Below are positions 3 to 62,565 of a stretch of 64,000 nucleotides of DNA, in pieces. The notes under the pieces were generated by a model. The model was not told the DNA's origin and made no database searches. It worked only from the letters and a program-made list of their open reading frames with translations. Position numbers and translations under genes: made by a program. Numbering within the stretch: position 1 is the stretch's first letter; each line of letters begins with the position of its first letter. The stretch lies in contig CAZACW010000001.1 in assembly GCA_964483785.1 (NCBI GenBank), positions 50,967 to 114,966 of the forward strand. Direction: 5' to 3'. The DNA comes from an uncultured Planctomycetales bacterium (GTDB taxonomy: Bacteria > Omnitrophota > Gorgyraeia > Zapsychrales > Fredricksoniimonadaceae).

Positions 3-3000
3 TTGTTCATTCACAGCTTCTGCAATTTCCCGCTGACGGTCAAATTCCGCATAATCTGCCTCGAGGGACATTTGGGTGATAGGCTCAACGGTCCTGATGA
101 TGAAATGAATACTGCCGAATTCTATGCCGATGATTTCATCCGGCGCCAGGGCGCGGGGGCCGTGCGGCGTATCAATATGGATGACCAGACGGCCATGGTC
201 GATATCTTCTCTAATATGCGCCCTGGCTTGGTCTTGGTCTGGCTCAGGTATATTGACGCCCTGCATGATCAGTCTGTAATTACCGTCATCCCTGCGCTCA
301 ACGCGGTCAAGAGGTACAGGTAGATTGGCATCCAGAGGACGCTGCAGCCTTTGCGCCAGCCGCTGCCTTACTTGCGGGCCAATGACGACGCTGATCGGCC
401 TTGCGGGAACTTGCTGCTGTTGCCGACGGGACCGGGCTTGCGGCAAAGAACGCGCCATCACCGCTTCCACTTTATCCAGCTTCAGATGAGCATTTTCAAA
501 TTCCCTTTGGGACATGAAGGTCTGAGCTTCAGTCACCAGAGAACGGACATCGGCTATACGCCCCATGGCCTCATAATTTTCATGATGGAAATCCAGCAGA
601 CCCGCTTCCCATATCAACATCTCATTATAAAGCTCATTGAAACGCCGCCTTAATTCCCCGCGTTCAGACAGGCTTAAAATTTTATAGATAATGGCCGCAA
701 GATACATGGACCCGAAGAGCAGGCCCATGAAGACAAACAATTGGTTCTGGCTTAATAAAAATTTCCTCGTGTCCGCGGCAAAGGTGATGATGGCCGGCAG
801 CGGGGAAATCAAGAACCAGATGACAACAGGGCTTGAAATGGACAAATGCCGCAGATACTCTGATCGGATGCGCTGGATCTCATGAGGCCTTAAAAGACTG
901 TGTAAAGGCAACCCCAACAATCTCCCTGCCGGCGCCAGCAGCCTGACGAAGAAAGCCACGGGAAGCCAGAGCCGGTCGGAAATGATCTTGGCTATCCAAA
1001 GCACTGTCAGGACCATGGCCTTCAAAAGCGCTAAAATGCCAAATCCCGATGAGAAAGACGGCGGATTCCTCTCAATTAACGGCCCCCAGAACCAGGAATA
1101 TAATTTGCCGATCAGCGCTACGGTCAACACGGCTGAAACCCAGGCGGCTATTCCGCCCTGCCTCATCAGCCCGGCCAGCACCGCATAGAGGAGCCCGACG
1201 CTCAGCCAAGCCGCGAGATGAGTAAGAGGCTCCAGGATTTTCTTCTTCCCTTCCAAATGCCCCAGCTTCACCGACATGGTCAAGGACCCCTGCATCGCGC
1301 CTACATAAAACATAAGGCCTGAAAGAAGCAATAATACGTTTTTCTCGTCGCCCAAGGAAATGATCACCAGAACGCCTGAAACAAACAAGGCCAGGCCCAT
1401 CAAGTGCGTTGTCCTGTTATTGACCAGCGGATGGGCGCTCCTGCCGCGGCTGTCCTCGGCAAAAACGGTGATCCTGTTCATATCAACACCCCTGAAATCC
1501 GTAGCATTGGCCCCGGACAAATCAAATTTCGGAGACTGCCTGACGCTTTGGGAAAGGAATTGGATCATGGACAAGGGGCTGAACAATATAACGTCCTTGC
1601 CGCGGGTGGAAATCCACTGGCTTAAGCCCAGGATAAACCCGCCGGCCCAAAGCGCAATGATGGTCCAGGACATCATCTCTGATGGGGTCATGGTCAAATA
1701 TCCCATGTCTATCGCGTATTTCAAGCCGAGCCAGGTCACGAGGCCCGCGACCAAACTGTGTTTATTCTTGAATCCGGCGCTTTCCATGTAGGCGGCCAGG
1801 CCCGCAAAGGTCAAAATTTGATTAAAAATAAGGCCGATGTTCCAGAGAATCATGTCCACCCCGGTAAACGGCAAGAAACCGAATAAAATGGCAATCGGGG
1901 TCAAGGCAGAATTTAAAATCGCATAGAGGACAAACCCGAAGAACCGGCCGTTGCTTTCGCGCACTTCCTTGGCTGTCATGCTGATGGGGCCGTAATCCGA
2001 GATCTGCTGCATAATGGGACTGCTTTTCATCTGGACATATCCGCCGGCCCAGCGCGGCGGGGCAATATATAAATCTGAGTGGGAATAGGTTTCGCGGATC
2101 TTATGCGGGAAGCTCTTAGACTGAATAAAGCTCGGGCGATAGCCCAAGGCGATCATGGTATGCGTGGCCTGGGTCACGGCCCAGATGTCCTCAGAGATCC
2201 CCGGCGCGTGCGGGGCAAAACCAATGAGACCGTAGTTAACGGCCCAGTATCTCTGGTACCAGCTCAGACGGCTGCGGTTTAAGGAAGTCAAGGGTTTCAA
2301 GGTGGCATCCCGGTGCATGAAGGCCCGCACGCTCATCCCATAAGTATTGCGCAGCTGGTTCTCCCAGCCGGTCCCGATGGATTCGCCGGCGGCCCCGCCG
2401 AAATTCATCACCCCGCGCAAAATGGCGCGGTGCCCCTCTTCGATCAGGCGGCTGTATTGGCCCATGGGCGTATTCACGTTGGTGGTGCCGCGGCCTGGCA
2501 CGACAATCACCAAATCCTCATTGCCGCGCAAATTCATCAGATCATAGTTATGTTCTTCGACGTCGTTATTGACCGCGCCGCGGTCAATGATCTTCATGGT
2601 CGTCATGCCCAAAACAACATCCGCGGGTGCGGCATCCATGCCTGCCCCGGTCAAGGCCTTGTTGCCAAAGGCCGTATGATCGTGGATCGTGAACATCCTT
2701 CCTTGCCTCTGCTGCATGCCTAAACTCGCATTCATGGCCTGGATCAATAAAGCGATCTTTTCCCTCTGGCCGATTTCAGATACAGGGTTGGTATTTTCAC
2801 GGCTGGGGGCAAGGCCTTCATCCGTATATTTATTGCTCGCGAAAATGACCACATTTTCATCGCCATGCAGAATTTCGTTCAGGCCAAAATACATATTCAG
2901 CTGGGCCACAGACAAATCCTGCGACTGGCCCGCGGCGGCGGTCATGGCCACAATCCAGCGGCGCGCATGCCAGGCATCCAAAATCTGCCGGCGGCTGTTG

Positions 3001-6000
3001 GCAGGGACATACACCCGGACATTCCTGCCCAAATTGACATCTGCAGGAATGGGACCTTCCACGATCTGCCATGGATGCAAAAGGGTCATTTTGGAATTGA
3101 TCTCCGCTTCGATCAGGCTTTCCAGGCCGGCCCTCAAGTCAGGATGACGCCCGTGCAAATACACGGCCGCATCATCGCCCCAGGCCACCAATTTTTCAAA
3201 GCGTTCCATAAGCACGTCAGCGGATATTGAATTCAGTCCCCTGAGGGCGTCGCCGCCGATGATGACATATCCGTGGACCTGCCTGCCGCGGCCCGGCCGC
3301 AAGGGATTATTGAATTCTTCGAATCTTTGCTGAATTTCTCTGCGCTTTAATTCCTGCACCCAGCGCGTCATTCTGTCACTGATGGACCTGCGGGCCTGCG
3401 GGAAATAAATAATGGCCCACGCGGCTATGACGCCTCCCAACACAAAGACATTTTGGACCAATCCCTGCGTTCCCATGACGGCCAGGCCTAAGGCCATGGT
3501 CTGCAAAGGCCATTTGGCGAAGATGGACATGAAATTGTAAAAGCCCATGGTCTGGGCGTAACGCACCAGCCCTAAAGCGTTAATCAGCATAAAGAGGGCC
3601 AGAAAGATCCTGACGTAGTCCCATCCGCCGTCCATCGTCGCATACACCTGGGAGAACCATCCGGAAAATACCGCCGGAACAATCAGATAAGAGCCGACGG
3701 CGATGAAGGCCGCGATAGAGGCGGCGAAATTCACCACGGTCATGCCCCAGGCCAGCCAGCCCTGTTTGGCCGCCACATAAATCGCGGCCTTCATAAATTT
3801 GGGCAAATAGGGCAGCTGCCTCAGCCAGGTCCCCCAGCCGCCGCCGGTCAAGGCCGCTGGGGTGAAATTGTATTTGAAGACCAGCCAGGTGAACGAAACA
3901 GGTTTTGCCTCTGTGATCATCAGCATGGCCCATCGTCTGAATACGCCGCCGCGGGCCATGTTACGGCTGACCATGGTCAAAGCAATGGGAAGAAGCAGGG
4001 AAAAGAATTCCAAAGAGACCCACACCACAAATACGCCCCAATTCAAATAGGAGAGATAAACGCTGTGCACCTCTAATTTCATCAGAACAAACAATAATCC
4101 GGCCAGGGAAACTATGCGCACGGCCAAGGAAGACCGCACGGCCAAATGGAAAATACGGTTCCATCCCGCCTTGATGGTCAAGCTAAAAGGAGCTCTCCTG
4201 GAAGGATGCCGAAGATGCTGGGCCATCCACGCCATGAAGGAGAGGCCGATCCCCGCGGCCATCCCCCATAACGGCCAATTCAGCAGATTAATCAGGCCGC
4301 CCGCATTCATCTGCTGCCACATGGTGCCAAGCCCGGTGATCATCGGCTCTCCGCCGTCGAATTCGTTTTTCAAGACCAATCCTAAGGCCAGGCTCAAAAG
4401 GAGCCAGGGAGCATATTTGATCTTTTCATTGAGTATCCAGTGGACCGGACGATGGTCATGATTGGCGATAAACTCCGTCATCATGCCGGTAAAATGCCGG
4501 AAGGAGCCTCTTTGTGCATGGAACACGTTTTCAAACAATTCACCGATGAGCGTTAAATCAACGCCGGGCAGTCTGGTCTCAACGCCAAGCTCTTGGCGGT
4601 CAGCGGCTTGAGGCGCAACAGCTTGACGGCCCAGCAAGCCATTCACCACCGCCAATTCATCGACCCTTGATCCGTCCTGGGCCACATAACGCCAGGCCGT
4701 GGCCTGCACGATGTTGACCAGGGCCCTGACTTGAATGAGATCATACGTTGTCGCTCCCACCGCCGGGACCCCGATATTCTCAAAGACCTGTTGCAATCTT
4801 TGTCCGGCCCTGTCGGTCCGGTCAGCGCCTTGGATGAGCTCTTCCCTTAAAAGCCAGGCGAATTCCTGGTTCATCATCATCAAGGTGTCCCAGGTGGTGT
4901 TGCTGTCAAAGGAACGCCCGTTGCCGCTGCCGCGGTTGGCCTCCAGGGCCACCCGCCGCGCGATCAAAGCCTGCATCCAGACATAAACCAACATGCGATG
5001 CATGAACACCGCGCTGTCTTCTTCTGTGATGAAGCCGGCCTGCCTCGCGTGCTTCAAATATCCATAGGTCAGTATGAACACATTCTTGAGCTGAGTATCG
5101 AAATGGAAATCAACAGCGCCATCCAGCAGGATGATGCTGCCGCCTCTTAAGGTCGGCAGATAGATCTCCTGCCAGGCCGACACCGCCTCTTCCATGGTCC
5201 CGGCATCCATCAACCGGTTGCGGTCTTGGCCAACGGTTTGCGCGGCGCTTTGTTTGGCCCGCCGGTCATAGAACAAAATTTTAACCGTCATGGTCAGGAG
5301 GCTCCAGGCCAGGATCAGGCCTGTGAATCCTTCGATGACCAAAATCAAGATGGAGGATTCCTTGGCATTCACATGCAGGGCAAATTGTTTTTGGGGCAAT
5401 ACCACCGCTGCGCGGCTTTCCATATCCGTCAAAATCCTGGCCGTGGCTGCCAGGGCCGTTCCACCGTCGGATTTGTCCCCTAAAGGCAGGATATCATTGT
5501 CCATGCCCGTTGAAATGCCTTTTTCATGGATCATTTCCCGGCGGTCAAAATCAGCGGGCAGGGCAAAGACTGGATACCGGCCCTCAACGCCTAGGGCATT
5601 CAGCGACCGGACGGCAAAATCCCTGCCCGGCGCATATCCGAGGGCCTGGGCCGCGGAAAGATATTCGGCCGTTGTCTGGGAAAATATCACATCGCCCTGG
5701 CCGCGCGGGGTGCTGGTGTCCAGCCCCTGCTTGCCGTCGATGCGCACACCGAAAATTTGATAGGCCCGCTCCAAAATTTCCTGGCCGTTGAGACCCAAAT
5801 CGTTTGCGATACGTGCCGCCGCGATATAATCACGGGCATCCAAATCCAGGCGGGTCCCGAAGAAACGCTGACCCTCATTATTACTGCTTTGGATCTCATC
5901 CTGGCCGGAGATGATCACCCCGCGGGATTCATAATTGTGTTTGACGTTGGCCAGGAGCCACCTTAAGGCCGTGTCCCTGACCTTGCTTAAATCCTGGACC

Positions 6001-9000
6001 TGGGCCGCGGTCAAAAGGCCCTGGCCTTGAATCAAGGTGTCCCGCGTTTCCCGGAATACAACCGCATTGTCCAAGGTCCTCATATGAAGCGGATTGTCCT
6101 GGATCAAAATTCCCGCGCGGCGCACGGCCTTTCCCGACCGGTCTTGCGCAATGCCGGAGAGCCCCTCATTGGGGATGAATTGATGGGTGAAACTGTGCGT
6201 TAAGTTGGTCAAGAATTCCGACGGTATTTGATTTTGGATTTGTCCGTTAGCAGCCTGGACATACAGCGAGACCAGATGGATGAGGCGCGCCTGCGCCGCC
6301 GGCGCGTAGGCGGAGGTCGTGTAATTGGTGTTATAAGCTTTGGATTCCTGGGCGTCCCTGGTCACGGCATTGTAGCTGCTGCGCAAAGGCAGCGTGCCTG
6401 CGCGGGTCACGTCCATGTAAAACTGGATGACACCAAAAGCCAAATCCAAACGCCCCTGATCGATCCAAGCTTCGAGTATGTCCATCTCTCCCATGGTTTC
6501 AACGATGGGGCTTGCCGGATTGGTCCTGAATAAAAATGCATCCGGGTCATATTGGTTTCTGACGACATTGCCGGCTTGGGCCCCGATCAGCGCATTGATC
6601 AAAGCATCGCGGGAGACGGCGATCTGGGCGGCTTCCCCTTGGATGGCCGGAGGCAAGGGGCGGCTGGACACATGGGGGAACAGCAAGGACGACCCTAAGA
6701 AGCTGGTGGAATATCTCGATTGTTCCAGGGCATCGGCCAATTGCAACGCCCTGTCCGACGTGGTTTGGTCCAAGTCGACCCCATTGCCGAAAATCCATTG
6801 TGAAGGCAGGGAAAGCGCGCTGTTGGCCGTGTTATTCTGGACCCTGCCAAAGGTCGGATGTGAAAGAAATTTCAGATCACGGCCGTAGACTTCAAAGGCC
6901 GGGACCTCATATTCGCCGTTTAAAAATACCTGGGTGCGGGACGATTCCAGGAAAGGATTGCGGATGCCAAAGACCTCAATTCTCCCCGGGGCAGGACGGG
7001 CGATGAGATTATATTCCAGGGTATCGCCTGTATGGCTGTTGAGCACCGCAAAGGGATCGCGGCGATGGACTAAGTGCCTTCTGTAAATTTCCACATTGGT
7101 GCTTTTTTCCTTCTGGCTGGCCTGGATGCTGTGCAGGCCATCGTCAAAATACATTTCGCTGTAATGATTGTCCTTCTCCACATAATGAATGGTCCTGCCG
7201 CCGCGGGAATCGTCACGGATAAAGGCCTTGACGCGTTTCAAAAACGCGGTGATGATGATTCTTTCAGGGGTGCTTTGGGCGGTGTAGACATTGATCCACA
7301 CCTCGCCTTTTTTGCCGCCGGAGACCGGCTCGACAAAGATGGCCTTGTCCTCCAGGATTTGGCCGAGGATTTCGCCGTTGCCCTCTTCGCTGGCATTCAC
7401 GATGTCCCCTTCATGCGTGGCGCGGCTGATCACGGCTTCCCAATCCTTGGGATTCAATCCCTGCACCCTGCTTTCAACGGCCTTGATGTCCAAGACCTCG
7501 ATATTTTCCTCCACCAGGATCACACCACCGGAGAGCCTGCCGCTATGGACAAAGACCAGATTGCCGCTTCGGATGGCCGCCAGATTTTTGCCTAAATTGA
7601 CCTGGCCTGAAAATCTCCCTTCGCGGGAAAGATTAATGACATCGCCCTTGCCCGTCGTGCGGCTGATCACCGCCCTTAAAACTCCGCTGCTTTGGCCTTC
7701 CGGCACGCCCACGAGCCTGCGCAGGTCCATGGTGTCTTTCTTGGCGCCGATGGCCATGACCGTGTTGTCCAAGCGTGCCTCATACAAGCCTGTCACCGTC
7801 ACTTCACCCTCGGCATCGCGTTCCTGGGCAAAGCTGGCGCTGTTGTTTTTGGTGTTGATTTGACCGACGGCATTGCCTTCGGCGGCCGTGTCAATGATGT
7901 CTCCCTTGCCGGTTTTACGGCTGACCAAGGCCCTTAAATCCTCGCTCTTGTACCCGTCAGGAGCATTGCTGACCTTGCGCACATCAGCCCTGTCCTTGAA
8001 GGCTCTGATTTCCACGGTGCCGGCGTTTAACCCGGCCTCGTACAACGCTGTTACCGCGGCCCCGTTTTGATCATCCCTTTCTTCAATAAAGCTCGCCCTG
8101 CCGGCCCCTTCATTGAATTGTCCGACGATATTGCCGTCCGCGGCCAAGTCCACAATATCGCCCTTGTGGGCCTTGCGGCTGACCGCGGCCCTTAAATGAT
8201 CGCTGTTAAAAGGGGCCGGAGCGCTGATCACCGGACGGACATCCATGGTGTCGATTTTCTCTTCAATCACGACCCGGCCGTTCTCCCGATGGGCCTTGAA
8301 TACTGCGCTGACGGTCTCATTCTTTTGGGCATCACGCTCTTCTACCAAGCTCGCCCTGCCGGTCTTGCCGTTGAATTGGCCGGCAATCAACCCGGCCCTG
8401 CTGATATCCACCAAATCGCCTTTACCGGTGGTGCGGCTGATCACGGCTTTGATGTCCCGGCTGTTCATGCCTGAAGGCAGGCCCTGGACCCCGATGATAT
8501 CAACGGTGTCTTTCTGCTCGCCGATGGTCAAGATGCCCTGGTCAAGAGCGGCCTTATAGATCCCGGCAACCGAAGCCTCGCCTTGCTCATCGCGCTCCTG
8601 GATCAGGCTGACAGTCAACTCTCCCGTATACGTGTTGGTCACGATCTGGCCGGCCACGATGCCCATGGTCCTATCGATGATGACGCCTTTGTGCGTTGAC
8701 CTTCGGATGGCGCCCCTGATTTCATGGCCGGCTATATCCGACGGCGCTCCAGCCACGGTGTGGATGTCCACGGTATCAAATTGCGGGCCGACGGTTTTCT
8801 GGTTCAAATCGATGGACTGCAAAGGATGCGGCTGATCACCCATGTCAAATTCCACGAAATCCCCTTCAGGCGTATCGACGCTGACTGAGCCTATTTCCAC
8901 ACTGCCCTTCATGATCCGCGCAGACTCGGTCTTGTTTTGGCGGTCCACATGAACGTTCAATATCAAACGCTGGCCGGCTGTGGTCAAAGCGGCTGGAATT

Positions 9001-12000
9001 TGTCCGGTGACCTCGCTGTTGATGGAATACCCTTCCACATCTCCCTGGTTCTGGGCATTCACGAGATCGCCGTGCTCGGTCAACAGATGAAGTTCGCTGT
9101 CATAGTAATAAACCGGCTGGCGGCCCAAGGGGGCCAAGGGATTGGAAAGCACCGCGTAGCCCAGGCGGCCTGAACTTAAATAGGCCCTTGGATAAAAGCC
9201 TAAATTCTCCTTTCCCGTGCGCAGGTCAACGCCGAAGATGCGGTCCTTGTTGGTCCTTAAATCGTGGCGCCGGATGACCAGGGCATTGACCACCCCCGGG
9301 ATATCGATGATGCCCAGCATGTCCGAGGTGGCGATCTTGGCACCCGCCTGGCCGTCGATCACCTCAAAAATATCGCCGTCCTCAACGTGTTCCATTTCCA
9401 TGCGGCCGGGAATGCCGGTCAAATACAGCCGGGCCACACGGCCCTGTTCGAAAGTATATTGTTCGATGGCGATCACATCGCTGTCCTTGATGCCGCGGTC
9501 CTTGATCTGCTGATAGGTCAACAATTCCGCGTGCACCGGGGCCGCGGCTGTGGCGTTAAAGACCACCACCAAATGGCTCTTGAGATATTCATTGATATAC
9601 TTCTGGGCCGGCGGTATCAGGGTCATGGTGGCGGCCTGCACCGGCGAGGTGGCGGCTTTCTCGCCGGGCTCGAGGCCGATCACCATGGTCTTTAAAGGCA
9701 GCCACCCCTCGCGCAGGGCCTGCGGATCATCATTGGGTGTCGGGAAGGCCTGCGTGGGCTCTTCGCGGTCAAACTTGCCGTTGCCGTTGGTGTCCTTATA
9801 ATACAAATATTGCTGACGGCCGTTGGTCTTGATGGGCAGATGCAATTGCAGCCAGCCATAAGGGGAATTCAAGGCCTTGACCAATTGGGCCTTGGTCAAT
9901 TTCATCAATTTAGGCTGGTCCAGAGGTTTGCCGCCGGCATCCACATGCACGGCCATGGCAAAGCCGATGGGCTGATTGTCCGCAATACTGTCCCAGGGTA
10001 CTTCAGGGACCTGGGGCCTGACCAGGGGCTGAGCGCGCACAGGGATTGTTATCCCTTCCGGCATGGCCATAGGATCTTTGCCGGCCACAGCCAAACCATA
10101 ATAGGCCCCGGCGGAAAGGGAGGCCGTGGCTGACTTAGGCGTGCGCCAGCCATGCATGGTATCCACGTAGGCGATACTGCCGTCGGGATGCACCGCATAC
10201 GGCGCCACCCACATATTGTTTTCCAATTTAAAGAACCTGCCCAAGGACTCCATCAAAAGCCTTCTCTTCATTTCATAAGATGCAGCTTTGTCAGAATCGC
10301 CCAAACGGCCGGCGATCTGACCGGCATGGCGGTATAAGAAGCTCAGCTGGGACGACCATTCCATGGAAATCGCCGTGTGGCGGTTGCCGAAATCAATGCC
10401 GAGCAATCGGCCGTTCTCATAAACTCCGGCGCGCTCTTCGAGGGCGTTGATCATCGCTTCGATCTCCTGGAAGCGCTCGGCCGCGGTGGCCCCGAAGAAC
10501 GGATCTTCCATCATTTCATCGACAGGCGCCCAGGTGGTGGTGTCTGAGGCAAAAAATTCAGGGCCGTCCTTGACCCAGGCGCCGTTTTGATAATGCGCAC
10601 CGCGGGAGAAGGTGTGCGTCCGCTTATCGTACATGCCCCTGATCCAGATATAGGCCTTGTCGCGGGCGGACGCAAAGCGGTCGCGGTCAGCCTGGGTGGC
10701 GCCGAAGCGGGCCAGTTTACGCAGTAAATTCAAGGCACTTTCATTGTTTTCCGTGGATTTCAGGTTAAAGAACACATCATTGCGCTGGCCTGGGCCTGCC
10801 ACCTGGCCTTTGGGACCGAAACGGATGCCGCCGTCGGCATCCTGCAGTTGGATCAAAAAGTCTGCGCGCTCCTGGGCCAAGATCAGGTTTTTCAAGTCCC
10901 TGCCCTGCAGATACTGGTCCAGCCCCGCGGCGCCGATCCAGGCATTGGGGCCTGCCCCGACATTCCAGGGCCATTTATTCCACCAATCGCCGTATTGTTC
11001 GCCGAAGCCGGCGACCCGGATATCGTTGAAAATCCCCTCCTGGATAATGCCTAAATTGCCCTGCGGCATCACCTGCGGATGGGTCTCACCGTCGGGGAAG
11101 CGGAAGCCGTTGTAATAGGTTTCCAAAATTTTTGCGGCTTTGCCGCCTTCCAAAATCACGCGCAGGCCGTTATCATAGGTATAGGACACAAAAGACAGGT
11201 CAAGATCGTTGAAGTAGCTGGGTGACATCCCCGCGGCCTTGGAATTCCTGTCGAAGAATTCGGTGTATTTCTGGCCCGCGGCCAAATTAAACTGCAGATC
11301 ATTGGACGGCGCCGGCGCGCCGAATTGGGCTGGAATGATGGGGTTGGGAACATCCAACAAATGGCCGAGCCCAAGACCTGGTTGATTGGCCGCCAGCTGT
11401 ACTCCGGTCAACCCTAAAGGATAAATGATCCAGTTGCCGTTGATTCTGGGCGTGGCTTCGAGCTCACCCACCGCGAAACGGAGTGGCGCAGGCGGCGTAT
11501 TCATCCCGTGATTAGACATCATGCGCAAAAATTCATCCATGTCCTGATGGGCGCGCCGGATCTCCCCTTCCATGCCTTGGGTGGACATTTCGATGATGAT
11601 GGGGAAGCGGCTGGTGAATTCAGGGCCGATCCTTCCCGTGTCCTTGGGCAGGACGATCCTGGCCTTGCCTGAACCCAGCGGCACCTTGGTGTGCTCGTCC
11701 ACCTTCAAAAAATATCCGAACACCGACGGCGCGTTTGCGACCCTCGGCAATTCTTCGCTGATGATCCCTGCCTCGTCCAGGTCTTCCTGGGGAATATTTT
11801 CGATGGCAAAAACAAGGGTGTCGTGGATCGCTTCCCATTGGGCCGCGTTGATGGGCTTGGGCATGTCCCCGAAGAACCTGGCCACTGCGTAGCCGGACTG
11901 GGCCTCCTGCTCGGTCCTCATTAATCTTAAGGAAGGCATGAATATTTTCTTGCCGTCCAAGGACATCAGCCATTCCACGGAAATGGGCCCCTTGGGCATT

Positions 12001-15000
12001 CTGTCCTGGCCTGTGAGCTCCTGTTCCTCGGTGTACACTTCCGTCGGAAGATAGCCGTGAATAGGATCATCGCGGGCTGCCGGGGCCAATCTCAGGCGGT
12101 CCTTGACCTGCTTTAGAAGCTCCTCGACCTTTTTGGGATCGCGCAATTGGTCTGAACTGACGCCGGGCAGGCGGTCGCGGCCGCTGCTGACATCATAGCC
12201 TATCCCCAGCGACGGGGATATGGAGCCGGCCAAGCCGCCGCGGCCGCCGGCCGCGATGCTGGGCTGGGCATAGGCCCCGAAATTCACGGACCAGCGATCA
12301 TAAATCCTCTGGGCCGCATTCACGTTGACGCCCCAGCCGGCCGGGCTGCCGAAAAGGCCCACGCTTAAACTCGTGTCTTCCTGGATCTTGAAATTATAAC
12401 CGACGCTGCCGCGCCACTGGCCGTTGATCATGGACGCCTGCGCCTGAAGGCGGCCGGGGCCGACGGGAGCTGAGACAGATATGCCGGCGCGCTTTTGGGC
12501 CACTTCAGGATTGATCATCACATCATAAATTTGGAAACCCGCGCCGATGGAGGGGAACACGGTATTGTAATGCCCGCCGAAAATGGTGGTCATCTCATGG
12601 TTCATGAAGAACCTCAACGACAACTTGAAATGGTCGCTGTCATAGACTTTTTGCTCGATGCCGATCTTATCGAACAGGGCCACATTATCCGCTGTCAAAA
12701 GACGTGTGGTATCAGTGACGTTGCGGTTGGTATAAGGATCTGTGACCGTGATACGGGTCTGGTCCTGGCGGTTGGAGAGAAATCCGCCGGCCTCGATGAT
12801 GAGCCTGGTGTCCTTGGTGAAATCATAATTGAAGCTTAAATTCATGCCGCCCATCATGCTGGATTTGGTGTGCGCGTTGTTGGCCACGTCTCTTAAGAAA
12901 ATACCGCTGACCGCAAAACCCCATTTATCGTTAGCCAGGGCCAAGGTATTGCCGATCAGCATATAGGCATGCCTGACTTCCTTGCCGCCGCCGCCGAAAT
13001 TCTGCTGGAATGAATTGGTCAAAAGCATGCCGATGGAGGCGCGGTCAACGGGATTGGCATTCAAGAGCCTGCCGATCAATCCAGCCTGCTTCTCGGTCAA
13101 AAGCACGTTGAACACCGCATACCATTCGTTTAAGCCTTCAGCCTGCACCAGGCCGACATAGGCATCGGTGTCCTTGAAAATATTGTTCATCACAAATTGG
13201 TAGCCGGCATTGAGATTGCCGAGGCTGGTGCGGCCGACCTGCATTTCCAGGCTGTCGCGGGCCTGGACATTATTGAAGCTGAACCTGAAGGTACTGCCGT
13301 CATTGAGCAAAAGATCATTGTCCCCCAAATTCAAGACCGGTATCGGCCGCATGTATTTTCTTTCGATATAGCGCTCGATCTCGCCCTCACTGCGCGGATT
13401 GACAATCTCAGGATGGCGGACCCGAAACTCATTGAACCTGGTCGTGACCCAGGTGTTTCTGGCTGCCACCGCGGTCTGATAAGCCCTGCCCGCGGCCTTG
13501 GCTTCATCTTTTAAGGAGGCGGCCCTGCCTTCAATCTCCACCTGTTCGCGGTTGAGCCGTGATTCGCTGATGGCGCTGGCGTTGATGGTCCTTAAGGCCT
13601 CGACCAAATCGCGTTCAGGGCTGAACACGCCGCTGCGGTTTAAATAAGCGTCCAGGGCCTTCTGGACATTGTTGAGCACAAAATTGATATAGCTTTGGGC
13701 GCTGCTGCCGTTAAAATCCCTGGCAAAATTGGCAAGCTGGGCCAGAAGTGCTGCGCGGGCATCGAGAATGGCTTTTTGCTGGGTGCCCACGGCGATCTTG
13801 CGCGCCACCACCTGGTCCACGGTTTCTCCGGCGGGATTGGCGTAATAATTGATGTCTTTCTGAAGGTCCGGCAGCTGCACACTGTTGATAAAGGCCTGTT
13901 CCTGGTACAAATTCTGGACCAGCAGGCTGATGGGCCCGACATACTGCGCCGGGGTCTTGGGATTGTTTTTGACATCGGTCAAATAACTGATCTGCGCCGG
14001 GAGATCGCTGTTGGCACGGTTGGTCAAATAGGCCTGGGCCACTGGGATCTGGTCCTTGGCCGTGAGCGGCACCTTGTTGGTGTAATCCACCACCTTCTGA
14101 TTGAACGCGGAAGCAAGCAGATTGGCAATCACTGTCCTGGTATTTAAGTCCTGCTGGGCATTCGCGATTTGTTCCGTCAGCATCTGGGTGACCAGCGACG
14201 GGTTATAGACAATATTGGTGAGCGTATTATTGGGATCAAAGGCAATGGCCAGGATGCTGACATTGAGATTGGCCAGGGCCAGCTGGGCCTTGGCCACGGC
14301 CAAATTGTCTGTCAGGGCCCTGGTCATGATCGAAGGATCATAATTGGTCTTGGAAACGGTGCTGTTAAACGCGATGGTCAAAATGGCAACAAGCTGATTG
14401 TCCAGTGCCTGCTGGGCCTTGGCCACGGCCAGATTGTCCATCAAAATTTGATCCAGTGTCACTGCCGCGCTGCCGGCTTCGGCGTTCGCGGCTTCCGTCA
14501 AATACGCGATGGTCTGGCTGGCCAGGGCATTTTGATTATTCAGGTAGGCCAATATGCCGTGGGTCACCTGGCGCACCGGATCGCTAAGAGGCAAGGCAGT
14601 GTATTTCGCATCCTGGGCGTTCCAGGCCGCGACCGCGGCAGGATAATCCGCCTGGACCTGGGTCGAATGAGCTATGCCGCCGCTGATAGCGCCGGGGCTG
14701 GGCAAAAATCCGATTCCATTGATATGCGTCGTCTCCCACTTGGTCAGAAGGGCCTGGGCCGCGGCGACATTGCCTGCGTCCTGGTTCAGCGCGTTTTGGG
14801 CGTTGGACAAATCTCCAGAACCAAAACTTAAGGCCTGCCACACCGGCGTGATGGTGACTGTAGGTGCCGGAATATTTTTGACTTCAGTTAAAAAGGCGAT
14901 CGTCTGGACAGCCACGGCATTTTGCTGATTGAGTATATTGAGTTCACCTGCGATCACCTGGCGCACCGGCGCGCTGGCCGGAAGCGCCGCGTAAATGGCA

Positions 15001-18000
15001 TCCTGGTTTTTCCAGGCCGTGACAGCAGCGGAATAATTGGCCAAAATATTGTTCGAAAAGGCCAGGCCCGAGTTGATTTGGGCCGGGCTGGGCAATAAAT
15101 TGCCGGTATCTTTTTGGGTCGCGATCCAGCTGGCCAGGTTGGCCGCGGCAGTGTTGGCATCCTGGGCTGCCTGAGCAGCCGCGGCCTGGGCATTGGGATA
15201 ATCACTGCTCTTGAAACTCAGGGCCTCCCATACCGTGCTGGTCTTGGTGACAATGGGCAAATTGTATACGGCCAGTTCATCGTTCAATTCCTGGATCTCT
15301 TTGGGAAGTAAAACAATCTCCGATTGAATATAGGCGATGAGCTGATTGATCCACACGACCACGTCGCTGTTGGCGGCTGCACCGCTGTACTTTTGAAGCT
15401 GGCCCTGCCAATACGGCAGGGCGGTATTGAAGGTCTGCAATTGATCGGTCAAGGAAGCGATCCTGGCCTTGGCATCCGCGATGCTGGAAGCGATCAAGAG
15501 GTCCTGGACTTGCTGGGTGGATTGCCATTTGGCCAGTTTGGCTTGCAGGCTCGCCAGACCAGCCTGGCCCTGGGTCACGGCGGTCTGGGCAGAAGTTAAA
15601 TCCGATGGTTTGACGCTTAAGGCCGTGGCAATGGTCGTCGTGGGCAGAGTGCCGGCCAGATTGCTTAAGGTGTTTAAGTTTGTGGCCAGGGTGGCGATCT
15701 GCTGCTGCAAGGCGGCCAAATTGACTGCGCTGAAAGGATCTGCCGTCGGATTATTGTTAAATTCATGCATGATCTTAGTCACGGCATCGCGGGCGCCGCT
15801 GGTGCCGCCGCGGCTTGCCTCGCTCATGAATTGATCGAAATACTGCGCTGCCGGGACCCCATAAACCTGCTTTTCCTGCAGATAAGCCTGCAGCCAGACA
15901 AAGCCGTAAATGGCCATCAAATCTTCATCCTTGTTCAGCAGCTGCACCGTGGAGCGCAGAACGGCGTTCCAGCCCTGATTGCGCATATTTTCGATCTCCC
16001 CGCGGCGCTGAGGGATAGAAGCAGCCTGCCTGGCCGCTTCCTGATAGGCAGCCAGTTTTTGTTCATAGGTCAGGCTTTTCTCATCGACAGAAGGCGCGAA
16101 AAGCCCCAGCTGCCGGTAAAATTCCTGCAGGGGCCTGTCGCTGATCGTCGGGGAAGGCCCGATCTTGATCTCGACCGGTTTCAAGAAAGGAAGATGGTCG
16201 GTCACCGCGGTCAATGTTCCGCTTTGCAAGTCCTGCCAGAGGCCGATGTCCTCATTATGGGCCTCTTCCTCGGCGACCCATGCCTGGCCGAATTCCAGCA
16301 GGGCAAACTGGCCCCTCTTTAAATAAGCACCGCCGGTGACGATCAGGGGCGCGCCCTGGCCGGCGGCTTTTCTGATCTCCACTTCCTTGACCAAACGGCC
16401 GCCCAGCGAATACTGGTGCGCGTAAGCTGATCTGCCTTTGCGGACCTCTGCTTCCGCGTCGGTCATGGCATGGGTAAAGCGCACGACCTTAGCCACATCC
16501 TGCTTGCTCGTCAGATAAAGGGCGTTCTTGTTATAAATGATCGCGGCCAGCGGCGTTGCCCGGGGCTTGAGTACAATCCCGATGCGCTTGTTCTTGGTAT
16601 CGATGTACACCTCGCCGATCTGGGCCTTTTGCAAAATGGGCCAGATCTTGTCAAAATCCTTGCCAAAGGCCGTGCGGATCTTGGGCTCTTCGGCCTTCAG
16701 GTCCGCGGTGAGGCGAAGCTGGGTGGATGTCTCGGTCCGCACGGCCCAGTTGTTTTGGGTCAAAATCTTGGAAACCGCGCTCCAGTCCAATTTGACCTGC
16801 TCATCTTCCATCTGGGCCCGGGTGATGCGGGCCGTCGGGTTCATGTGAATGCTGGCAGACTGGATAATGGCCTTTTTAAAGTATTGATCGAATTGCGCGG
16901 GGGTGATCTGGTTGTAAAAATTCACTTGTATAGGCTGGATAGGCTTGCCCGCTTCCAAAAGCGGCGCGATCTCCTGCATGGCCTTCTGGGAAAGGATGAC
17001 GAATTTGACATCGTCCTTGCCGACGTGGGCCATCACCGCGGCACTGCCGTATTCGCTCCCTAATAAACCGTCGTGGTCCGCCAAAATATACCTCGCGTCC
17101 TTATGTTCCTGGGGCAGGGCGTCGTATACCTTCTTTAAATGATCGCGCAGGCGTTCATTGCTGAAGCTCCTTGGATTGTAAAGAATGGGCTGGTTTTGGG
17201 CATTGGCAAAGGTGCTTGGCCCTAAAACGCTGATCCGCGTCTCTTGCGGGACGCCCTGGGGCGTTAATCCGTCGAGGCTTGACAAAGGCTTAAAGACCAT
17301 GGGATCAATGGTGGCGCTGTCATAGGAATACCAGGCCACGGCTTCCGGCGCGCGGCTGACCTGGCCGAACCTCATTTTGAAGGCCTCCGGAGAGAAAATC
17401 ACGTACGCCAAATCTTCCTTCGTGCCGTTCTTTCCGACGGAGATGGGCGCCACGTCCGCCCAGCGGTTGTTTTGATAAACATGGTCCAGCACCACCGGCA
17501 CTTCATTATCGCGGAAAAGGCCGGGGATGAAACGGCTGGTGGCCGGGTTGAATAAGCCGGCATTGACCTGGCGGCCTTTCTCGTCATGGCCGGCCTGGAT
17601 CATGGCCGCGGTCTGCAAAGTGTCCTCCAGCTCAAACAGCGACGGAACGCGGTAAAGGCCGGGGGTCTTATCATAGACAAAGGCGCGGAAAGCCTCATAA
17701 ACCCCGCCCTGGCCCTTGGTCTGTGCGCGCTCCTTCCAATTGACGATGAAGGCGCGGGTGACGGCGATTTCATGTTCAAACTTTTCAAATTTGGTCCCTT
17801 TCAAGGAACCGGCCGGGACCTTGGTCGTAAGCATGACAAAGGCCAAATTGCGGTCATGATTCAAGGCGGCATAACGGTTGTATAATCTTTCCGGCATGCC
17901 CCATTCCCTGACAACGGGCAGCATTTGCTCGATGGGCATGAGCTTGTTGGCATCGCCGAAGAAATTGCCCACCCCTCCGGGCCTATTCCCCTCCTTGTCC

Positions 18001-60695: not shown

Positions 60696-60930
60696 ATTTT
60701 TTCAGATTTTGAAGCAATTTACCGTCGACAATTGGAGTATAACACATTATATTTAAAAGACCACTTTTGTGCAAATTTATTTAGAGTCATAAGTCCTTAT
60801 ATTTTATAAAGTTATGCTCTTAATGAAAAAATAATAATTTATACTATTCAAATTTGAATTTTTATTTAGATGCAAGTAGAGAAAGGGCTTTCTTGGTTAA
60901 TAGATTGTATTTGTTTGGCTTTTTGAGAGA
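60696..60930. promoter_or_regulatory. AT-rich upstream/promoter region of the giant gene
   Basis: A sharp drop in GC immediately upstream of ATG 60695. It contains a 14-bp perfect palindrome, attcaaatttgaat (~60846-60859). No specific -35/-10 assigned. Confidence 0.3.
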
Positions 60931-61253: not shown

Positions 61254-61353
61254 AATTTTAAGATTACTTTGTTTAATATGTGTTAAAATCAATTTGAACA
61301 ATAATTTTACAAAATGATATACATTCTGTAATGTTACTTTACAAAATGAAATT

Positions 61354-62565
61354 ATGTGGTATATTTATTGTATGTCCACCATTGATCAATTGCTTGAATA
61401 TGACCGCCTTGCCAAAAAGGACGGTCAAAAATATGATAAAAAAAGGACTCTTTACGATATAATTACGAAAGATTCCGGAGACCATTTTATCGGCATAGTC
61501 GGCCCCAGAGGGGCTGGAAAAACGATCATTCTTAAGCAATTGGCCCTTGCCCATACCAACTCTTTTTATCTTTCTCTTGATACTCTGGAAGGAAATCTCT
61601 TCGATCTTGTTAAAACCCTGCAAGAAACGCTGCGCATTGAATTGTTCCTTTTGGATGAAGTCCATTTTTATCCTTCCCTTGAGGCTGATCTCAAAAAAAT
61701 CTATGATCTTTTGAAGGTCAAGATCATTTTCACAAGTTCAACAGCTTTAGGCATGTATAAATCGAATTATGATTTATCACGGCGCGTGCTGCTTAAAGCG
61801 CTTTACCCTTTTACATTAAGAGAATACGCGGATTTTAAGTACGATCAAAAGTTTGGCACCTTGGGCCTTAAGGATTTTATTGACGGCAGTTTCCCTCACG
61901 ACATTCTCCGGGTCGGTGAACATTTTATTCCCTATATTCAAGGAGGCCTCATGCCCTTTGCCCTGCGTGAGCCCCAGCCGTTGGTCTTATTAAAAAACAT
62001 CCTTGATACCATTATCCATAAGGACATCCCGCGCATCGCCAGGCTCGTCACCGATGAATTGGATAAAATCGAACAGCTCATCCGCTTTATAGGCCTTTCC
62101 GGAATTGATGGCATCAACTATTCGACCGTGGCGCATAATCTCCATATTTCAAAATATAAAGCCGCGCAATACATTTCGCTTTTAGAAAAAGCCTTTGTTT
62201 TACATCAGGTTTTTCCAAAAGGCAGTAATGTTTTAAAAGAGCCCAAGGTCGTCATGGCCTTGCCCTACCGGCTTTTGTATCGAAATTTTAGCGATGCTTT
62301 GGGAGGTTTAAGGGAAGATTTCTTTGTCGGGACCTTTAAGGCCCTGGGTCAAGAGGTCTTTTATCTTAAATCTTTTCGCGGCAGCAAGACCCCTGATTAC
62401 CTGCTCCAGGACCCGCAGGACATTGTCTTTGAAGTCGGCGGGAAGGGTAAGGGGAAAAGTCAATTTAAAGGCATCGACGTCTGCAAAAAAATCATTCTCT
62501 CCGATGGGTTTGATGTGACAAATACAAAAAAACCGCTGTTTATGCTGGGTTTGCTGGGGTCTTAA
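61354..62565 (+). CDS. AAA family ATPase / ATP-binding protein (AAA_14 + DUF4143 type)
   Basis: 403-aa ORF in the track. Walker A GIVGPRGAGKTIIL and Walker B LFLLDEVH; overall layout typical of the widespread DUF4143 ATPase family. An alternative start MSTIDQ lies at 61372. Confidence 0.85.
   Translation: MWYIYCMSTIDQLLEYDRLAKKDGQKYDKKRTLYDIITKDSGDHFIGIVGPRGAGKTIILKQLALAHTNSFYLSLDTLEGNLFDLVKTLQETLRIELFLLDEVHFYPSLEADLKKIYDLLKVKIIFTSSTALGMYKSNYDLSRRVLLKALYPFTLREYADFKYDQKFGTLGLKDFIDGSFPHDILRVGEHFIPYIQGGLMPFALREPQPLVLLKNILDTIIHKDIPRIARLVTDELDKIEQLIRFIGLSGIDGINYSTVAHNLHISKYKAAQYISLLEKAFVLHQVFPKGSNVLKEPKVVMALPYRLLYRNFSDALGGLREDFFVGTFKALGQEVFYLKSFRGSKTPDYLLQDPQDIVFEVGGKGKGKSQFKGIDVCKKIILSDGFDVTNTKKPLFMLGLLGS

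What the first reader, a model, noticed from the sequence alone, without database searches (positions are those of the whole stretch)
300..12100. C-terminal ~4,000 residues look like a polysaccharide-processing unit
The region has two parts. An (alpha/alpha)6-type motif (ISMEWSSQLSFLYRHAG, resembling the E-x-x-ALWYNAL signature of glucoamylase and debranching enzymes) lies at ~9000-12100. After the 285-bp repeats comes a polytopic membrane module with a large cytoplasmic loop carrying GISEDIWA, reminiscent of the GT48 glucan-synthase SEDIFAG region, at 300-6000. Coupling a hydrolase-like barrel to a membrane synthase-like module inside the giant protein suggests export or remodelling of a glycan.
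Basis: partly seen in the sequence, partly recalled or inferred. Interest (0 to 1): 0.6.

Follow-up and report, generated by a model that had tools for sequence, protein, structure and literature searches.

The report
Unannotated polysaccharide-synthase module in giant protein
The last ~2,300 residues visible of a >20,000-residue bacterial protein contain a previously unannotated membrane enzyme module whose predicted structure matches cellulose, chitin and hyaluronan synthases, so this giant protein probably makes and exports a sugar polymer.

Summary
The window is one stop-free reading frame on the minus strand (60701..3, 20,233 aa, still open at the window edge). Both quoted motifs sit where stated.

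The membrane module (window ~700-5350) belongs to a family of at least 141 cluster representatives. Pfam, NCBIfam and PDB-sequence searches find nothing for it, and the six members looked up are unnamed or "hypothetical protein". An AlphaFold2 model built on 37 homologues (pLDDT 77.8, pTM 0.76) matches only membrane-integrated processive glycosyltransferases: BcsA, CesA, hyaluronan and chitin synthases, and Cgs. The invariant residues follow the order of the synthase signature: K(A/S), D-R-N, SED at the start of a helix, K-x-R-E, RW-x-GG-x-x-Q.

GT48 membership is not supported. PF02364 does not hit, profile comparisons with 102 real GT48 sequences are negative, and FKS1 is absent from the top 50 fold matches. 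Some motifs (D-x-N, EDI-aromatic-A, K-x-R) do resemble GT48.

The upstream domain (window ~10060-11285) is related to (alpha/alpha)6 barrels. It is closest to GH76, not glucoamylase, and has Gly-Pro where GH76 has its catalytic Asp-Asp.

Verdict: a new sequence family of a known enzyme kind. The synthase reading is supported, the GT48 and glucoamylase labels are not, and the product is unknown.

The parts
10062..11285 (-). D1: (alpha/alpha)6-barrel-like domain (giant aa ~16473-16880), containing ISMEWSSQ (10320-10370). Predicted to lie outside the cytoplasm.
   Evidence: Homologues: P0031 aa 3064-3467 (E 2.8e-82), P0142 and P0143, and 61 metagenome loci. Profile A5 hits PDB GH76 mannanases (E 3.2e-7 to 6e-3) over about 90 residues. 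Of 33 members, 26 weakly hit Pfam GH76, 18 GH127, 12 C5-epim_C and 12 GH88.
7152..8840 (-). Six diverged tandem protein repeats of about 79-89 aa (giant aa ~17288-17850).
   Evidence: A regular-expression anchor [SR]R..[HG][KE]G[DV].. recurs at aa 17333, 17422, 17508, 17594, 17680 and 17759. No DNA-level tandem repeat is detected.
5382..6644 (-). D2: helical domain (giant aa ~18020-18440), predicted to lie outside the cytoplasm. It sits N-terminal to the synthase module in the family.
   Evidence: Local jackhmmer finds it in about 24 long family members at E 1e-78 to 1e-147 (alignment A4). No PDB or Pfam match. Weak colinear similarity to D1 (hhalign E 0.0027, probability 11%, 283 columns).
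5295..5351 (-). TM helix (aa 18451-18469) separating D2 from the cytoplasmic part.
   Evidence: Kyte-Doolittle mean 2.26 over 19 residues. The loop that follows starts with a K/R-rich stretch (positive-inside rule).
4428..5294 (-). Domain of about 290 aa, predicted cytoplasmic (aa 18470-18758), of unknown fold.
   Evidence: Conserved in family members P0007, P0014, P0001, P0002, P0006 and P0013, whose alignments run through aa ~18600-18840. No Pfam or NCBIfam hit.
3420..4427 (-). N-terminal TM bundle (aa 18759-19094, about 6-8 helices).
   Evidence: Hydropathy peaks and alternating K/R-rich and K/R-poor loops.
1941..3419 (-). GT-A-like catalytic domain in the large cytoplasmic loop (aa 19095-19587). 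It carries the invariant residues N19290 (NKY), K19348, D19373-R (DRG here, DRN in most relatives), R19404 (GRGTT), E19421 (EEGH), G-W19446 (GTGW), S-E-D 19503-19505 (window 2187-2195), K19534-x-R-E (window 2091-2102) and R-W 19550-19551 (window 2049-2054).
   Evidence: Alignment A1 invariants (window residues checked). AF2 model m3c8f66eaf671 has pLDDT about 80-95 over this region; SED caps helix 445-459 and RW lies in helix 488-501. Foldseek gives BcsA E 7.6e-6, HAS 5.7e-5, chitin synthase 1.1e-4 and CesA 1.2e-4.
705..1940 (-). C-terminal TM bundle, the presumed polymer channel (aa 19588-19999). It includes invariant Q19628 (FNQIL), an interface-type helix (aa ~19700-19718) and a flexible loop with the conserved F-x-x-SGA (window 1509-1577).
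   Evidence: AF2 helices 516-819, hydropathy, A1 consensus and window residues.
3..704 (-). Cytoplasmic tail (aa 20000-20233), cut by the window edge.
   Evidence: Open frame to base 3. Only weak matches to two family members. No Pfam hit.

Best explanation
Giant aa ~18020-20233 (window ~3-6640) form a self-contained unit: D2 domain (outside), TM helix, ~290-aa cytoplasmic domain, TM bundle, GT-A catalytic domain, TM bundle. Its core is a membrane-integrated processive glycosyltransferase of the BcsA/CesA/HAS/chitin-synthase/FKS1 architectural class.

Inferred mechanism: the cytoplasmic GT-A domain binds a nucleotide sugar, using K19348 and D19373-R. The Asp of the S-E-D motif, at the tip of a finger helix, acts as catalytic base. 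The R-W of the following interface helix holds the acceptor end at the mouth of a channel formed by the enzyme's own TM helices. The growing chain is pushed through this channel to the outside, where the fused D2 domain receives, guides or modifies it. In this protein the 87-aa repeats and the GH76-like D1 barrel may also take part.

Shown: family membership, the predicted fold match, the conservation and order of the motif residues, and the hydropathy pattern.

Inferred: catalytic activity, the roles of individual residues, topology, processivity, and any role of D1 or D2. The sugar and linkage are unknown.
For: - Family: 141 homologues, 76 with E<1e-30. Only giant aa ~17883-20213 are shared with them.
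- Model: the AF2 model built on A1 has pLDDT 77.8 and pTM 0.76.
- Fold: Foldseek against PDB gives 23 matches at E<=1e-3, and the 50 listed are all glycosyltransferases, nearly all membrane-integrated polysaccharide synthases (BcsA 5ej1 7.6e-6, HAS 8smn, chitin synthases 7wjo and 8k3w, CesA 8vi0 and 8g2j, Cgs 8rf9, CslF6 8dqk).
- Motifs: 19 invariant residues in 37 sequences with 26-39% identity to the window protein, in the order N-K-Y, K, D-R, R, E, G-W, S-E-D, K-x-R-E, R-W-x-G, Q. All are present in the window copy.
- Placement in the model: SED begins model helix 445-459 and RW lies in helix 488-501. In BcsA, the TED motif sits in the finger helix (PMC10499315). That QxxRW sits in interface helix 2 is from my own knowledge of BcsA.
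- Comparison with E. coli BcsA: 'TED..GY(T)..x13..TES..x9..RWARGMVQ' against the window 'SED..GY(R)..x13..RET..x11..RWAGGYVQ' (and inspection).
- Topology: loop charges put D2 outside and the GT loop inside.
- Distribution: 40 loci in species-representative genomes, labelled mainly Verrucomicrobiota and Omnitrophota, plus a few Planctomycetales and scattered other labels. The module is always inside a very large ORF.
Against: - No sequence-level link to any characterised glycosyltransferase. Pfam and NCBIfam give nothing. The A1 profile against PDB sequences gives nothing. hhalign against E. coli BcsA is negative. hmmsearch scores against BcsA and GT48 do not exceed shuffled controls.
- Canonical GT2 signatures are altered: DDG becomes NKY, DxD becomes D-R-N/G, and the Q of QxxRW is absent. 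A pseudoenzyme therefore cannot be excluded.
- No nucleotide-sugar or polysaccharide genes are conserved next to family members.
Confidence: 0.72

Rival explanations
1. The module is a bacterial member or direct relative of GT48 (FKS1/callose synthase) and makes a beta-1,3-glucan without a metal ion.
For: At motif level (inference), the family shares features that distinguish FKS1 from GT2 synthases:
- D-x-N instead of DxD. FKS1 has D1102-A-N1104 and does not need a metal (PMC10499315). The family has D-R-N.
- (S/N)-E-D-I-aromatic-A.
- A basic K-x-R-(E/D) about 25-30 residues after the ED (FKS1 K1246/R1248; here K475/R477).
- Matching spacing from that Arg to A-G-x-x-x-Q (inspection of real GT48 sequences).
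FKS1 itself has the BcsA-like architecture.
Against: PF02364 does not hit the window or seven family members scanned in full. hhalign of A1 against 102 genuine GT48 sequences is negative, with probability at most 1.3% and the wrong regions aligned. hmmsearch scores equal those of shuffled sequences. No FKS1 entry is in the top 50 fold matches, while GT2 and GT84 synthases fill the list. The family keeps the GT2-type R-W, which the GT48 sequences retrieved here lack at that position. The GT48 set was fungal only (Neff 1.8-2.6), so the negative result is weak.
Confidence: 0.1
2. The module is a synthase-derived pseudoenzyme. It keeps the fold and channel but no longer polymerises sugar, and serves as a membrane anchor, glycan-binding receptor or conduit for the giant protein.
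For: Three canonical GT2 signatures are altered: NKY for DDG, D-R-N/G for DxD, and no Q before RW. There is no conserved sugar-activation gene context. The giant protein carries its own SecA-like domain and sits near a type II secretion gene, so export functions are a theme of this protein.
Against: Nineteen residues are invariant across sequences only 26-39% identical to the window protein. They fall at the positions that bind donor and acceptor in BcsA and FKS1, including the presumed catalytic base. Such conservation is typical of active enzymes. FKS1 shows that a D-x-N variant can be active without a metal.
Confidence: 0.13
3. It is a non-processive membrane GT-A enzyme, such as a polyprenyl-phosphate sugar transferase of the DPMS/GtrB/ArnC type or a lipid or protein glycosyltransferase, and not a polymer synthase-translocase.
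For: An archaeal mannosyltransferase (6yv7) also appears in the fold list, at rank 49 with E 0.034. The GT-A fold alone does not prove processivity.
Against: All strong matches are processive synthases with their own channel. The matches cover 490-860 alignment columns, including the TM region. The module has about 16 or more TM segments flanking the loop, a finger-helix SED and an interface-helix RW. From my own knowledge, these are hallmarks of the processive class.
Confidence: 0.05

Closest known systems
Bacterial cellulose synthase BcsA (GT2) and its relatives CesA, hyaluronan synthase and chitin synthase
   Same: Best predicted-fold matches. A cytoplasmic GT-A domain is inserted between TM bundles. 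The order K(A), D-x-x, (S/T)-E-D at a helix start, then R-W-A-x-G-x-V-Q in the next amphipathic helix is the same, with near-identical spacing from (S/T)ED to RW (47 against 41 residues in E. coli BcsA). A flexible loop follows an interface-type helix, where BcsA has its gating loop (the BcsA side is from my own knowledge).
   Different: No detectable sequence homology by HMM or HH methods. DDG is replaced by NKY, DxD by D-R-N/G, and Q-x-x-RW by P-R-W. There are many more TM segments. No PilZ domain was detected in the visible tail. The module is fused to a large outside domain (D2) and a ~290-aa cytoplasmic domain, and is embedded in proteins of 4,000 to more than 20,000 aa.
[quoted passage not shown]
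   Same: The same overall synthase architecture. D-x-N in place of DxD, an E-D-I-aromatic-A finger-helix start, and a K-x-R-(D/E) motif downstream. It is a large multi-domain membrane protein with TM bundles on both sides of the GT domain.
   Different: PF02364 does not match. Profile comparisons are negative. FKS1 is not among the top 50 fold matches. The family keeps R-W, whereas the GT48 sequences retrieved here have I/V-G at that position. GT48 is eukaryotic (my own knowledge), while this family was found in genomes labelled Omnitrophota, Verrucomicrobiota and Planctomycetales.
Cyclic beta-1,2-glucan synthase Cgs (GT84 + TM region + GH94-type (alpha/alpha)6 domain, ~2,800 aa)
   Same: Appears among the fold matches (8rf9 E 5.3e-3, 8rfe). 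It is a precedent for one very large polypeptide that couples a membrane-embedded synthase to an (alpha/alpha)6 glycan-processing domain (my own knowledge).
   Different: In Cgs the barrel domain is cytoplasmic and C-terminal to the synthase (my own knowledge). Here the barrel-like D1 and the D2 domain are N-terminal and predicted to be outside. No sequence similarity was detected.
GH76 alpha-1,6-mannanases ((alpha/alpha)6 six-hairpin glycosidases), as the nearest relatives of domain D1
   Same: Profile A5 matches GH76 structures 6u4z, 4mu9, 4c1s, 6shd and others (E 3e-7 to 6e-3) across two helical hairpins. The match includes the N-x-W-x-G-L helix and the 'kyl..A......l....GG' hairpin.
   Different: The match covers only about 90 of about 400 residues and stays below the Pfam gathering score (best 24.8 against 25.9 bits). 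The consecutive catalytic carboxylates of GH76 (D-D/E just before N-x-W; PMC4321491) align with G-P of the GPNAW motif (G and W invariant, P and N in at least 90% of members). D1 has its own conserved acidic residues instead: the D of TYD, the E of STE(N/H)N, the D of (S/T)DT..W, and the E of S-x-EW(S/T)xQ.

Membership tests
GT48 (Pfam PF02364 Glucan_synthase; FKS1/callose synthase) | Significant match to the family profile | tested here: not met
   There is no PF02364 hit for the window segment at E<=0.1 or for 7 family members at E<=1, nor for two full 4,300-aa members. Genuine GT48 fragments all carry PF02364.
GT48 (Pfam PF02364 Glucan_synthase; FKS1/callose synthase) | Profile-profile or HMM similarity to genuine GT48 sequences | tested here: not met
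   hhalign of A1 against 102 fungal GT48 sequences gives probability at most 1.3%, with non-equivalent regions aligned. hmmsearch scores are no better than for shuffled sequences. The GT48 set was fungal only and of low diversity.
GT48 (Pfam PF02364 Glucan_synthase; FKS1/callose synthase) | Active-site motifs D-A-N, N-E-D and K-x-R (FKS1 D1102/N1104, E1221/D1222, K1246/R1248) | tested here: inconclusive
   The colinear counterparts D-R-N/G, S-E-D and K-x-R-E are invariant or nearly so (FKS1 residues from PMC10499315). The correspondence is by inspection only and has no statistical support.
GT48 (Pfam PF02364 Glucan_synthase; FKS1/callose synthase) | FKS1 structures as nearest structural neighbours | tested here: not met
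   No FKS1 entry is among the 50 best Foldseek PDB matches; GT2 and GT84 synthases fill the list. Lower ranks were not visible.
Membrane-integrated processive GT-A synthases (BcsA/CesA/HAS/CHS class, CAZy GT2) | GT-A catalytic domain inserted between TM helices that form a channel (fold) | tested here: met
   The AF2 model (pLDDT 77.8, pTM 0.76) gives Foldseek probability 0.97-1.00 and E 7.6e-6 to 1e-3 against 23 such structures. This rests on a predicted model.
Membrane-integrated processive GT-A synthases (BcsA/CesA/HAS/CHS class, CAZy GT2) | Signature D,D,D,QxxRW (DDG, DxD, TED, QxxRW) | tested here: inconclusive
   S-E-D and R-W are present and invariant, and lie on the expected helices. 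The first D is N (NKY), DxD is D-R-N/G, and the Q of QxxRW is absent.
Membrane-integrated processive GT-A synthases (BcsA/CesA/HAS/CHS class, CAZy GT2) | Sequence-profile membership (Pfam Glycos_transf_2, Glyco_tranf_2_3, Cellulose_synt, Chitin_synth and similar) | tested here: not met
   No Pfam or NCBIfam hit of any kind. The A1 profile against PDB sequences finds no synthase. hhalign against E. coli BcsA is negative.
Membrane-integrated processive GT-A synthases (BcsA/CesA/HAS/CHS class, CAZy GT2) | NDP-sugar-dependent polymer synthesis and translocation | not testable with these tools
   This needs biochemistry.
   No dbCAN library was available. Pfam, NCBIfam and PDB-sequence searches served as proxies.
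   No GH15 or debranching-enzyme entry appears among the PDB hits of profile A5 or the Pfam hits of its 33 members.
GH76 alpha-1,6-mannanase (nearest to D1) | Profile match above the curated threshold over the whole barrel | tested here: not met
   The best Pfam GH76 score is 24.8 bits against a cut-off of 25.9, covering profile positions ~90-200 of 366. PDB matches cover only profile positions 81-172.
GH76 alpha-1,6-mannanase (nearest to D1) | Consecutive catalytic carboxylates (D-D/E) preceding N-x-W | tested here: not met
   The HMM alignments start at the second Asp of D-N-(V/I)-W in 6u4z, 4mu9 and 4c1s. The D1 family has G-P-N-A-W there, with G and W invariant and P and N in at least 90% of members. 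The catalytic pair is defined in PMC4321491.
Six-hairpin (alpha/alpha)6 glycosidase superfamily (fold level, for D1) | Consistent weak matches to several member families | tested here: met
   Of 33 members, 26 hit GH76, 18 GH127, 12 C5-epim_C, 12 GH88 and 8 Pec_lyase. PDB GH76 and LanC-type barrels also match.

The most novel reading that the evidence does not exclude
The module represents an undescribed CAZy-level family of processive polysaccharide synthases, found in genomes labelled mainly Omnitrophota and Verrucomicrobiota, that combines GT2 features (R-W interface helix) with GT48 features (D-x-N, likely metal-independent; K-x-R). This would make it a candidate prokaryotic link to, or sister of, the eukaryotic FKS/callose synthases. 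It would also mean that giant Omnitrophota proteins build and extrude a glycan, for example a tether, sheath or attachment matrix, and do not only degrade prey walls.
Probability: 0.2. Interest if true: 0.8.

Novelty: new variant of a known kind. Interest (0 to 1): 0.6.

Why it matters
Giant Omnitrophota proteins have been read mainly as attachment and wall-degrading machines. In the two giant-gene papers searched here, the glycosyltransferase domains that turned up were soluble GT1, GT5 and starch-synthase types.

A conserved, self-contained synthase-translocase unit would add a biosynthetic and export activity to these proteins. Current domain libraries and sequence searches of solved structures miss this unit.

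The same unit gives a first functional handle on ~4,300-aa proteins from genomes labelled Verrucomicrobiota and Planctomycetales. Two full-length members have no Pfam hit at all, and the members that carry a name are "hypothetical protein".

The mixed GT2/GT48 motif pattern makes the family a useful test case for how metal-independent D-x-N synthases such as FKS1 arose.

Tried and rejected
- Pfam and NCBIfam on the window segment found nothing.
- Single-sequence phmmer against PDB found nothing.
- The word-indexed homologue search with the 1,800-aa module gave no hits. The exhaustive HMMER search was needed.
- The single-sequence AlphaFold run was useless (pLDDT 33) and cost one of the two prediction jobs, so D1 and D2 could not be modelled.
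- Profile A1 against PDB sequences returned only a designed ion channel at E 0.14.
- hhalign of A1 against E. coli BcsA was negative.
- hhalign of A1, whole and core, against 102 GT48 sequences was negative.
- hmmsearch with shuffled controls showed no signal.
- Exact-match searches for the window edge in genome and metagenome contigs found nothing, so the 3' continuation of the gene could not be recovered.
- D2 profile against PDB and Pfam found nothing.
- D1 against E. coli BcsZ (GH8) found nothing.
- Genes downstream of Verrucomicrobiota family members are not conserved: cNMP-binding, fatty-acid synthesis, PQQ propeller.
- Neighbours of stand-alone PilZ-D1 genes are peptidases, a transglutaminase-like protein and a GTPase, not glycan genes.
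- A transporter reading of the membrane module was rejected because every fold match listed is a glycosyltransferase.

Full report
**What is in the window.**
The window is dominated by one stop-free frame on the minus strand, from 60701 to base 3. It has 20,233 codons and is still open at the window edge. Pfam finds three things:
- a C39 peptidase domain near the N-terminus (aa 158-260);
- a complete SecA-like region at aa ~10011-11010;
- a type II secretion F-protein gene next door at 62965-63876.

This is the architecture described for giant Omnitrophota proteins (bioRxiv 10.1101/2023.11.21.568195). The finding concerns the last ~4,000 visible residues. 'C-terminal' cannot be verified. In Omnitrophota relatives L013, L024, L037, L041 and L032 the frame continues more than 3,500 aa beyond the homologous module. 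In Verrucomicrobiota relatives it ends about 735 aa after the start of the matched core.

**Check of the observation.**
Hydropathy shows the following:
- a TM helix at aa 18451;
- a ~290-aa soluble stretch;
- about 6-8 hydrophobic segments up to aa 19094;
- a 493-residue loop carrying GISEDIWA;
- about 10 further hydrophobic segments up to aa ~20000.

Between the two parts lie six diverged protein repeats of about 79-89 aa. They are invisible at the DNA level.

**The membrane module is a conserved, unannotated family.**
- Pfam, NCBIfam and PDB-sequence searches of the segment return nothing.
- The word-indexed protein search also returned nothing.
- An exhaustive HMMER scan of 1.84 billion cluster representatives found 141 relatives, 76 below 1e-30. 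Most are 3,000-7,500 aa long, with the module near their C-terminus.
- Seven of them, including five with the complete module, and two full 4,300-aa members have no relevant Pfam hit.
- Of six members looked up, those that carry a name are 'hypothetical protein'.
- Only giant aa ~17883-20213 are shared with this family. The conserved unit is therefore D2, TM helix, cytoplasmic domain, TM bundle, loop domain, TM bundle.
- A pattern scan of species-representative genomes found 40 loci, labelled mainly Verrucomicrobiota (Limisphaerales, Pedosphaera) and Omnitrophota, plus a few Planctomycetales and scattered other labels.

**Fold.**
An alignment of 37 sequences (A1) with 26-39% identity to the window protein has 19 invariant residues. 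AlphaFold2 on this alignment gave a confident model (pLDDT 77.8, pTM 0.76, with 80-95 over the loop domain).

Foldseek against the PDB returned 23 matches at E<=1e-3. The 50 listed are all glycosyltransferases, nearly all membrane-integrated polysaccharide synthases:
- BcsA (5ej1, 7.6e-6; 4p00; 4hg6);
- hyaluronan synthases;
- chitin synthases from Phytophthora, Candida and yeast;
- plant CesA;
- CslF6;
- the cyclic beta-1,2-glucan synthase Cgs.

**Motifs (inference by inspection, no statistical support).**
The invariant residues follow the order of the synthase signature:

| Motif in this family | Position in A1 numbering | Counterpart |
|---|---|---|
| N-K-Y after a beta-strand | N231 | BcsA D-D-G |
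| F-G-x-K-A | K289 | BcsA H-A-K-A-G |
| D-R-N/G after a strand | D314 | BcsA D-x-D, FKS1 D-A-N |
| G-R-G-T-T | R345 | FKS1 G-A-R-E-Y (tentative) |
| E-E-G-H | E362 | FKS1 K1172/E1173 (tentative) |
| G-T-G-W | G386, W387 | BcsA F-F-C-G-S, FKS1 H-Y-G-H (tentative) |
| S-E-D at the N-cap of helix 445-459 | S444-D446 | BcsA T-E-D, FKS1 N-E-D |
| K-x-R-E | K475, R477, E478 | FKS1 K1246-x-R1248 |
| R-W-x-G-G-x-x-Q in helix 488-501 | R491, W492, G495 | BcsA Q-R-I-R-W-A-R-G-M-V-Q |

All of these are present in the window copy. In BcsA the TED motif sits in the finger helix (PMC10499315). That QxxRW starts interface helix 2 is from my own knowledge.

E. coli BcsA reads TED-x10-GYT-x13-TES-x9-RWARGMVQ. 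The window reads SED-x14-GYR-x13-RET-x11-RWAGGYVQ (and inspection). A conserved F-x-x-S-G-A lies in a flexible loop after an interface-type helix. From my own knowledge, BcsA has its gating loop at that position.

**GT48 or GT2?**
- PF02364 does not match.
- hhalign of A1 against an alignment of 102 of them, whole or restricted to the catalytic core, is negative.
- hmmsearch scores for real GT48 and for BcsA do not exceed shuffled controls.
- No FKS1 structure is in the top 50 fold matches.

On the other hand, the family shares features that set FKS1 apart from GT2. It has D-x-N instead of DxD; FKS1 has D1102-A-N1104 and works without metal (PMC10499315). It also has E-D-I-aromatic-A, and K-x-R-(D/E) after the finger helix. 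The family keeps the GT2-type R-W. I therefore file it as a new sequence family of the BcsA/FKS architectural class with a mixed motif pattern, and not as GT48 or GT2.

**The barrel-like domains.**
D1 (aa 16473-16880) has close relatives in one other giant protein (P0031) and in P0142 and P0143. A metagenome scan gave 61 loci. A 33-sequence profile (A5) hits GH76 alpha-1,6-mannanase structures (6u4z 3.2e-7, 4mu9 4.4e-6, 4c1s 2.7e-5 and others) over about 90 residues, and more weakly LanC-type barrels. Members individually give sub-threshold Pfam hits to GH76 (26 of 33), GH127, C5-epimerase, GH88 and pectate lyase, all (alpha/alpha)-barrel families. The fold assignment is therefore supported, but glucoamylase or debranching enzyme is not.

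The GH76 catalytic pair of consecutive carboxylates just before N-x-W (PMC4321491) aligns with G-P of the GPNAW motif. D1 is therefore not a canonical GH76 hydrolase. It keeps other conserved acidic residues, so it may be an enzyme with a different catalytic set, or a glycan-binding module.

D1 is an accessory. Among the 141 module relatives only P0031 has it. Most stand-alone D1 relatives are ~670-aa PilZ-TM-D1 proteins.

The constant partner of the synthase module is D2 (aa ~18020-18440). It is found in about 24 long family members and has no PDB or Pfam match. It shows weak colinear similarity to D1 (E 0.0027, probability 11%).

**Topology and mechanism.**
Loop charges (positive-inside rule) put D1, the repeats and D2 outside. 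They put the 290-aa domain and the GT loop inside.

The most likely working model is a processive synthase-translocase. It would polymerise a sugar from a cytoplasmic nucleotide sugar, possibly without a metal. It would extrude the chain through its own TM channel to the fused outside domains. Catalysis, processivity, product identity and the roles of D1 and D2 are all inferred.

The main rival is a pseudoenzyme that keeps the fold. The altered DDG, DxD and Q positions allow this reading. The invariance of 19 residues at presumed donor and acceptor positions argues against it.

**Novelty.**
The two giant-gene papers I searched turned up soluble GT1, GT5 and starch-synthase domains, but no membrane synthase of this kind. 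A full-text search for Omnitrophota plus cellulose synthase found nothing relevant. The kind of machine is known. The sequence family, its motif mixture, its fusion partners and its presence inside proteins of 4,000 to more than 20,000 aa are new.

Noticed in passing
window 3-60701 (-): A single stop-free frame of 20,233 codons runs off the window start, so the true protein is longer. The probable start is the ATG at codon 3 (~60693-60695), followed by a TM helix at aa 39-57.
   Followed up: partly
window ~59920-60230 (-), giant aa 158-260: A Peptidase_C39 domain (E 6.6e-8) lies directly after the N-terminal TM helix, as reported for giant Omnitrophota proteins.
   Followed up: partly
window ~27670-30670 (-), giant aa ~10011-11010: A complete SecA-like region sits in the middle of the giant protein: SecA_DEAD 7.5e-66, preprotein cross-linking domain, P-loop, and Wing/Scaffold.
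   Followed up: no
window 61318-62562 (+) and 62965-63876 (-): The neighbouring genes are an AAA_14/DUF4143 ATPase and a type II secretion system protein F.
   Followed up: no
window 1-64000: G+C content shifts within the one ORF, from about 0.46 (window 32-54 kb) to about 0.55-0.57 (window 1-26 kb). The gene may be a compositional mosaic.
   Followed up: no
L046-L098 (e.g. L052:2164-4134, L066:2110-4131) and P0143: Stand-alone relatives of D1 form a widespread family of ~670-aa proteins built as PilZ, TM, then the GH76-like barrel. Six of seven tested have PilZ. Their neighbours are a transglutaminase-like protein (DUF3857), TPR, M20 and M48 peptidases and a GTPase, not glycan genes.
   Followed up: partly
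P0010, P0021, and L004-L027 (Verrucomicrobiota loci): Proteins of about 4,100-4,600 aa, from genomes labelled mainly Verrucomicrobiota, carry the module at their C-terminus. Two full-length members have no Pfam hit anywhere. Their first ~2,200 residues share nothing with the window protein.
   Followed up: partly
L013, L024, L037, L041, L032: In these relatives (labelled Omnitrophota, Planctomycetales and Pseudobdellovibrionaceae) the ORF continues more than 3,500 aa past the synthase-like module, so the module can be internal rather than terminal.
   Followed up: no
window 5382-6644 and 10062-11285 (-): D1 and D2 show weak colinear similarity (hhalign E 0.0027, probability 11%, 283 columns). 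They may be two diverged copies of one helical barrel fold.
   Followed up: partly
window 3-704 (-), giant aa 20000-20233: The cytoplasmic tail after the last TM helix has a coiled-coil-like stretch, an R/Q-rich segment and a small beta-rich region that is cut by the window edge. No PilZ or other Pfam match was found.
   Followed up: no
L025:12211-20373 (+): In one relative, binned as Clostridia, the gene carrying the module is followed directly by another 2,720-aa ORF with DUF218, radical SAM, LigT-like and ATP-adenylyltransferase-like regions.
   Followed up: no
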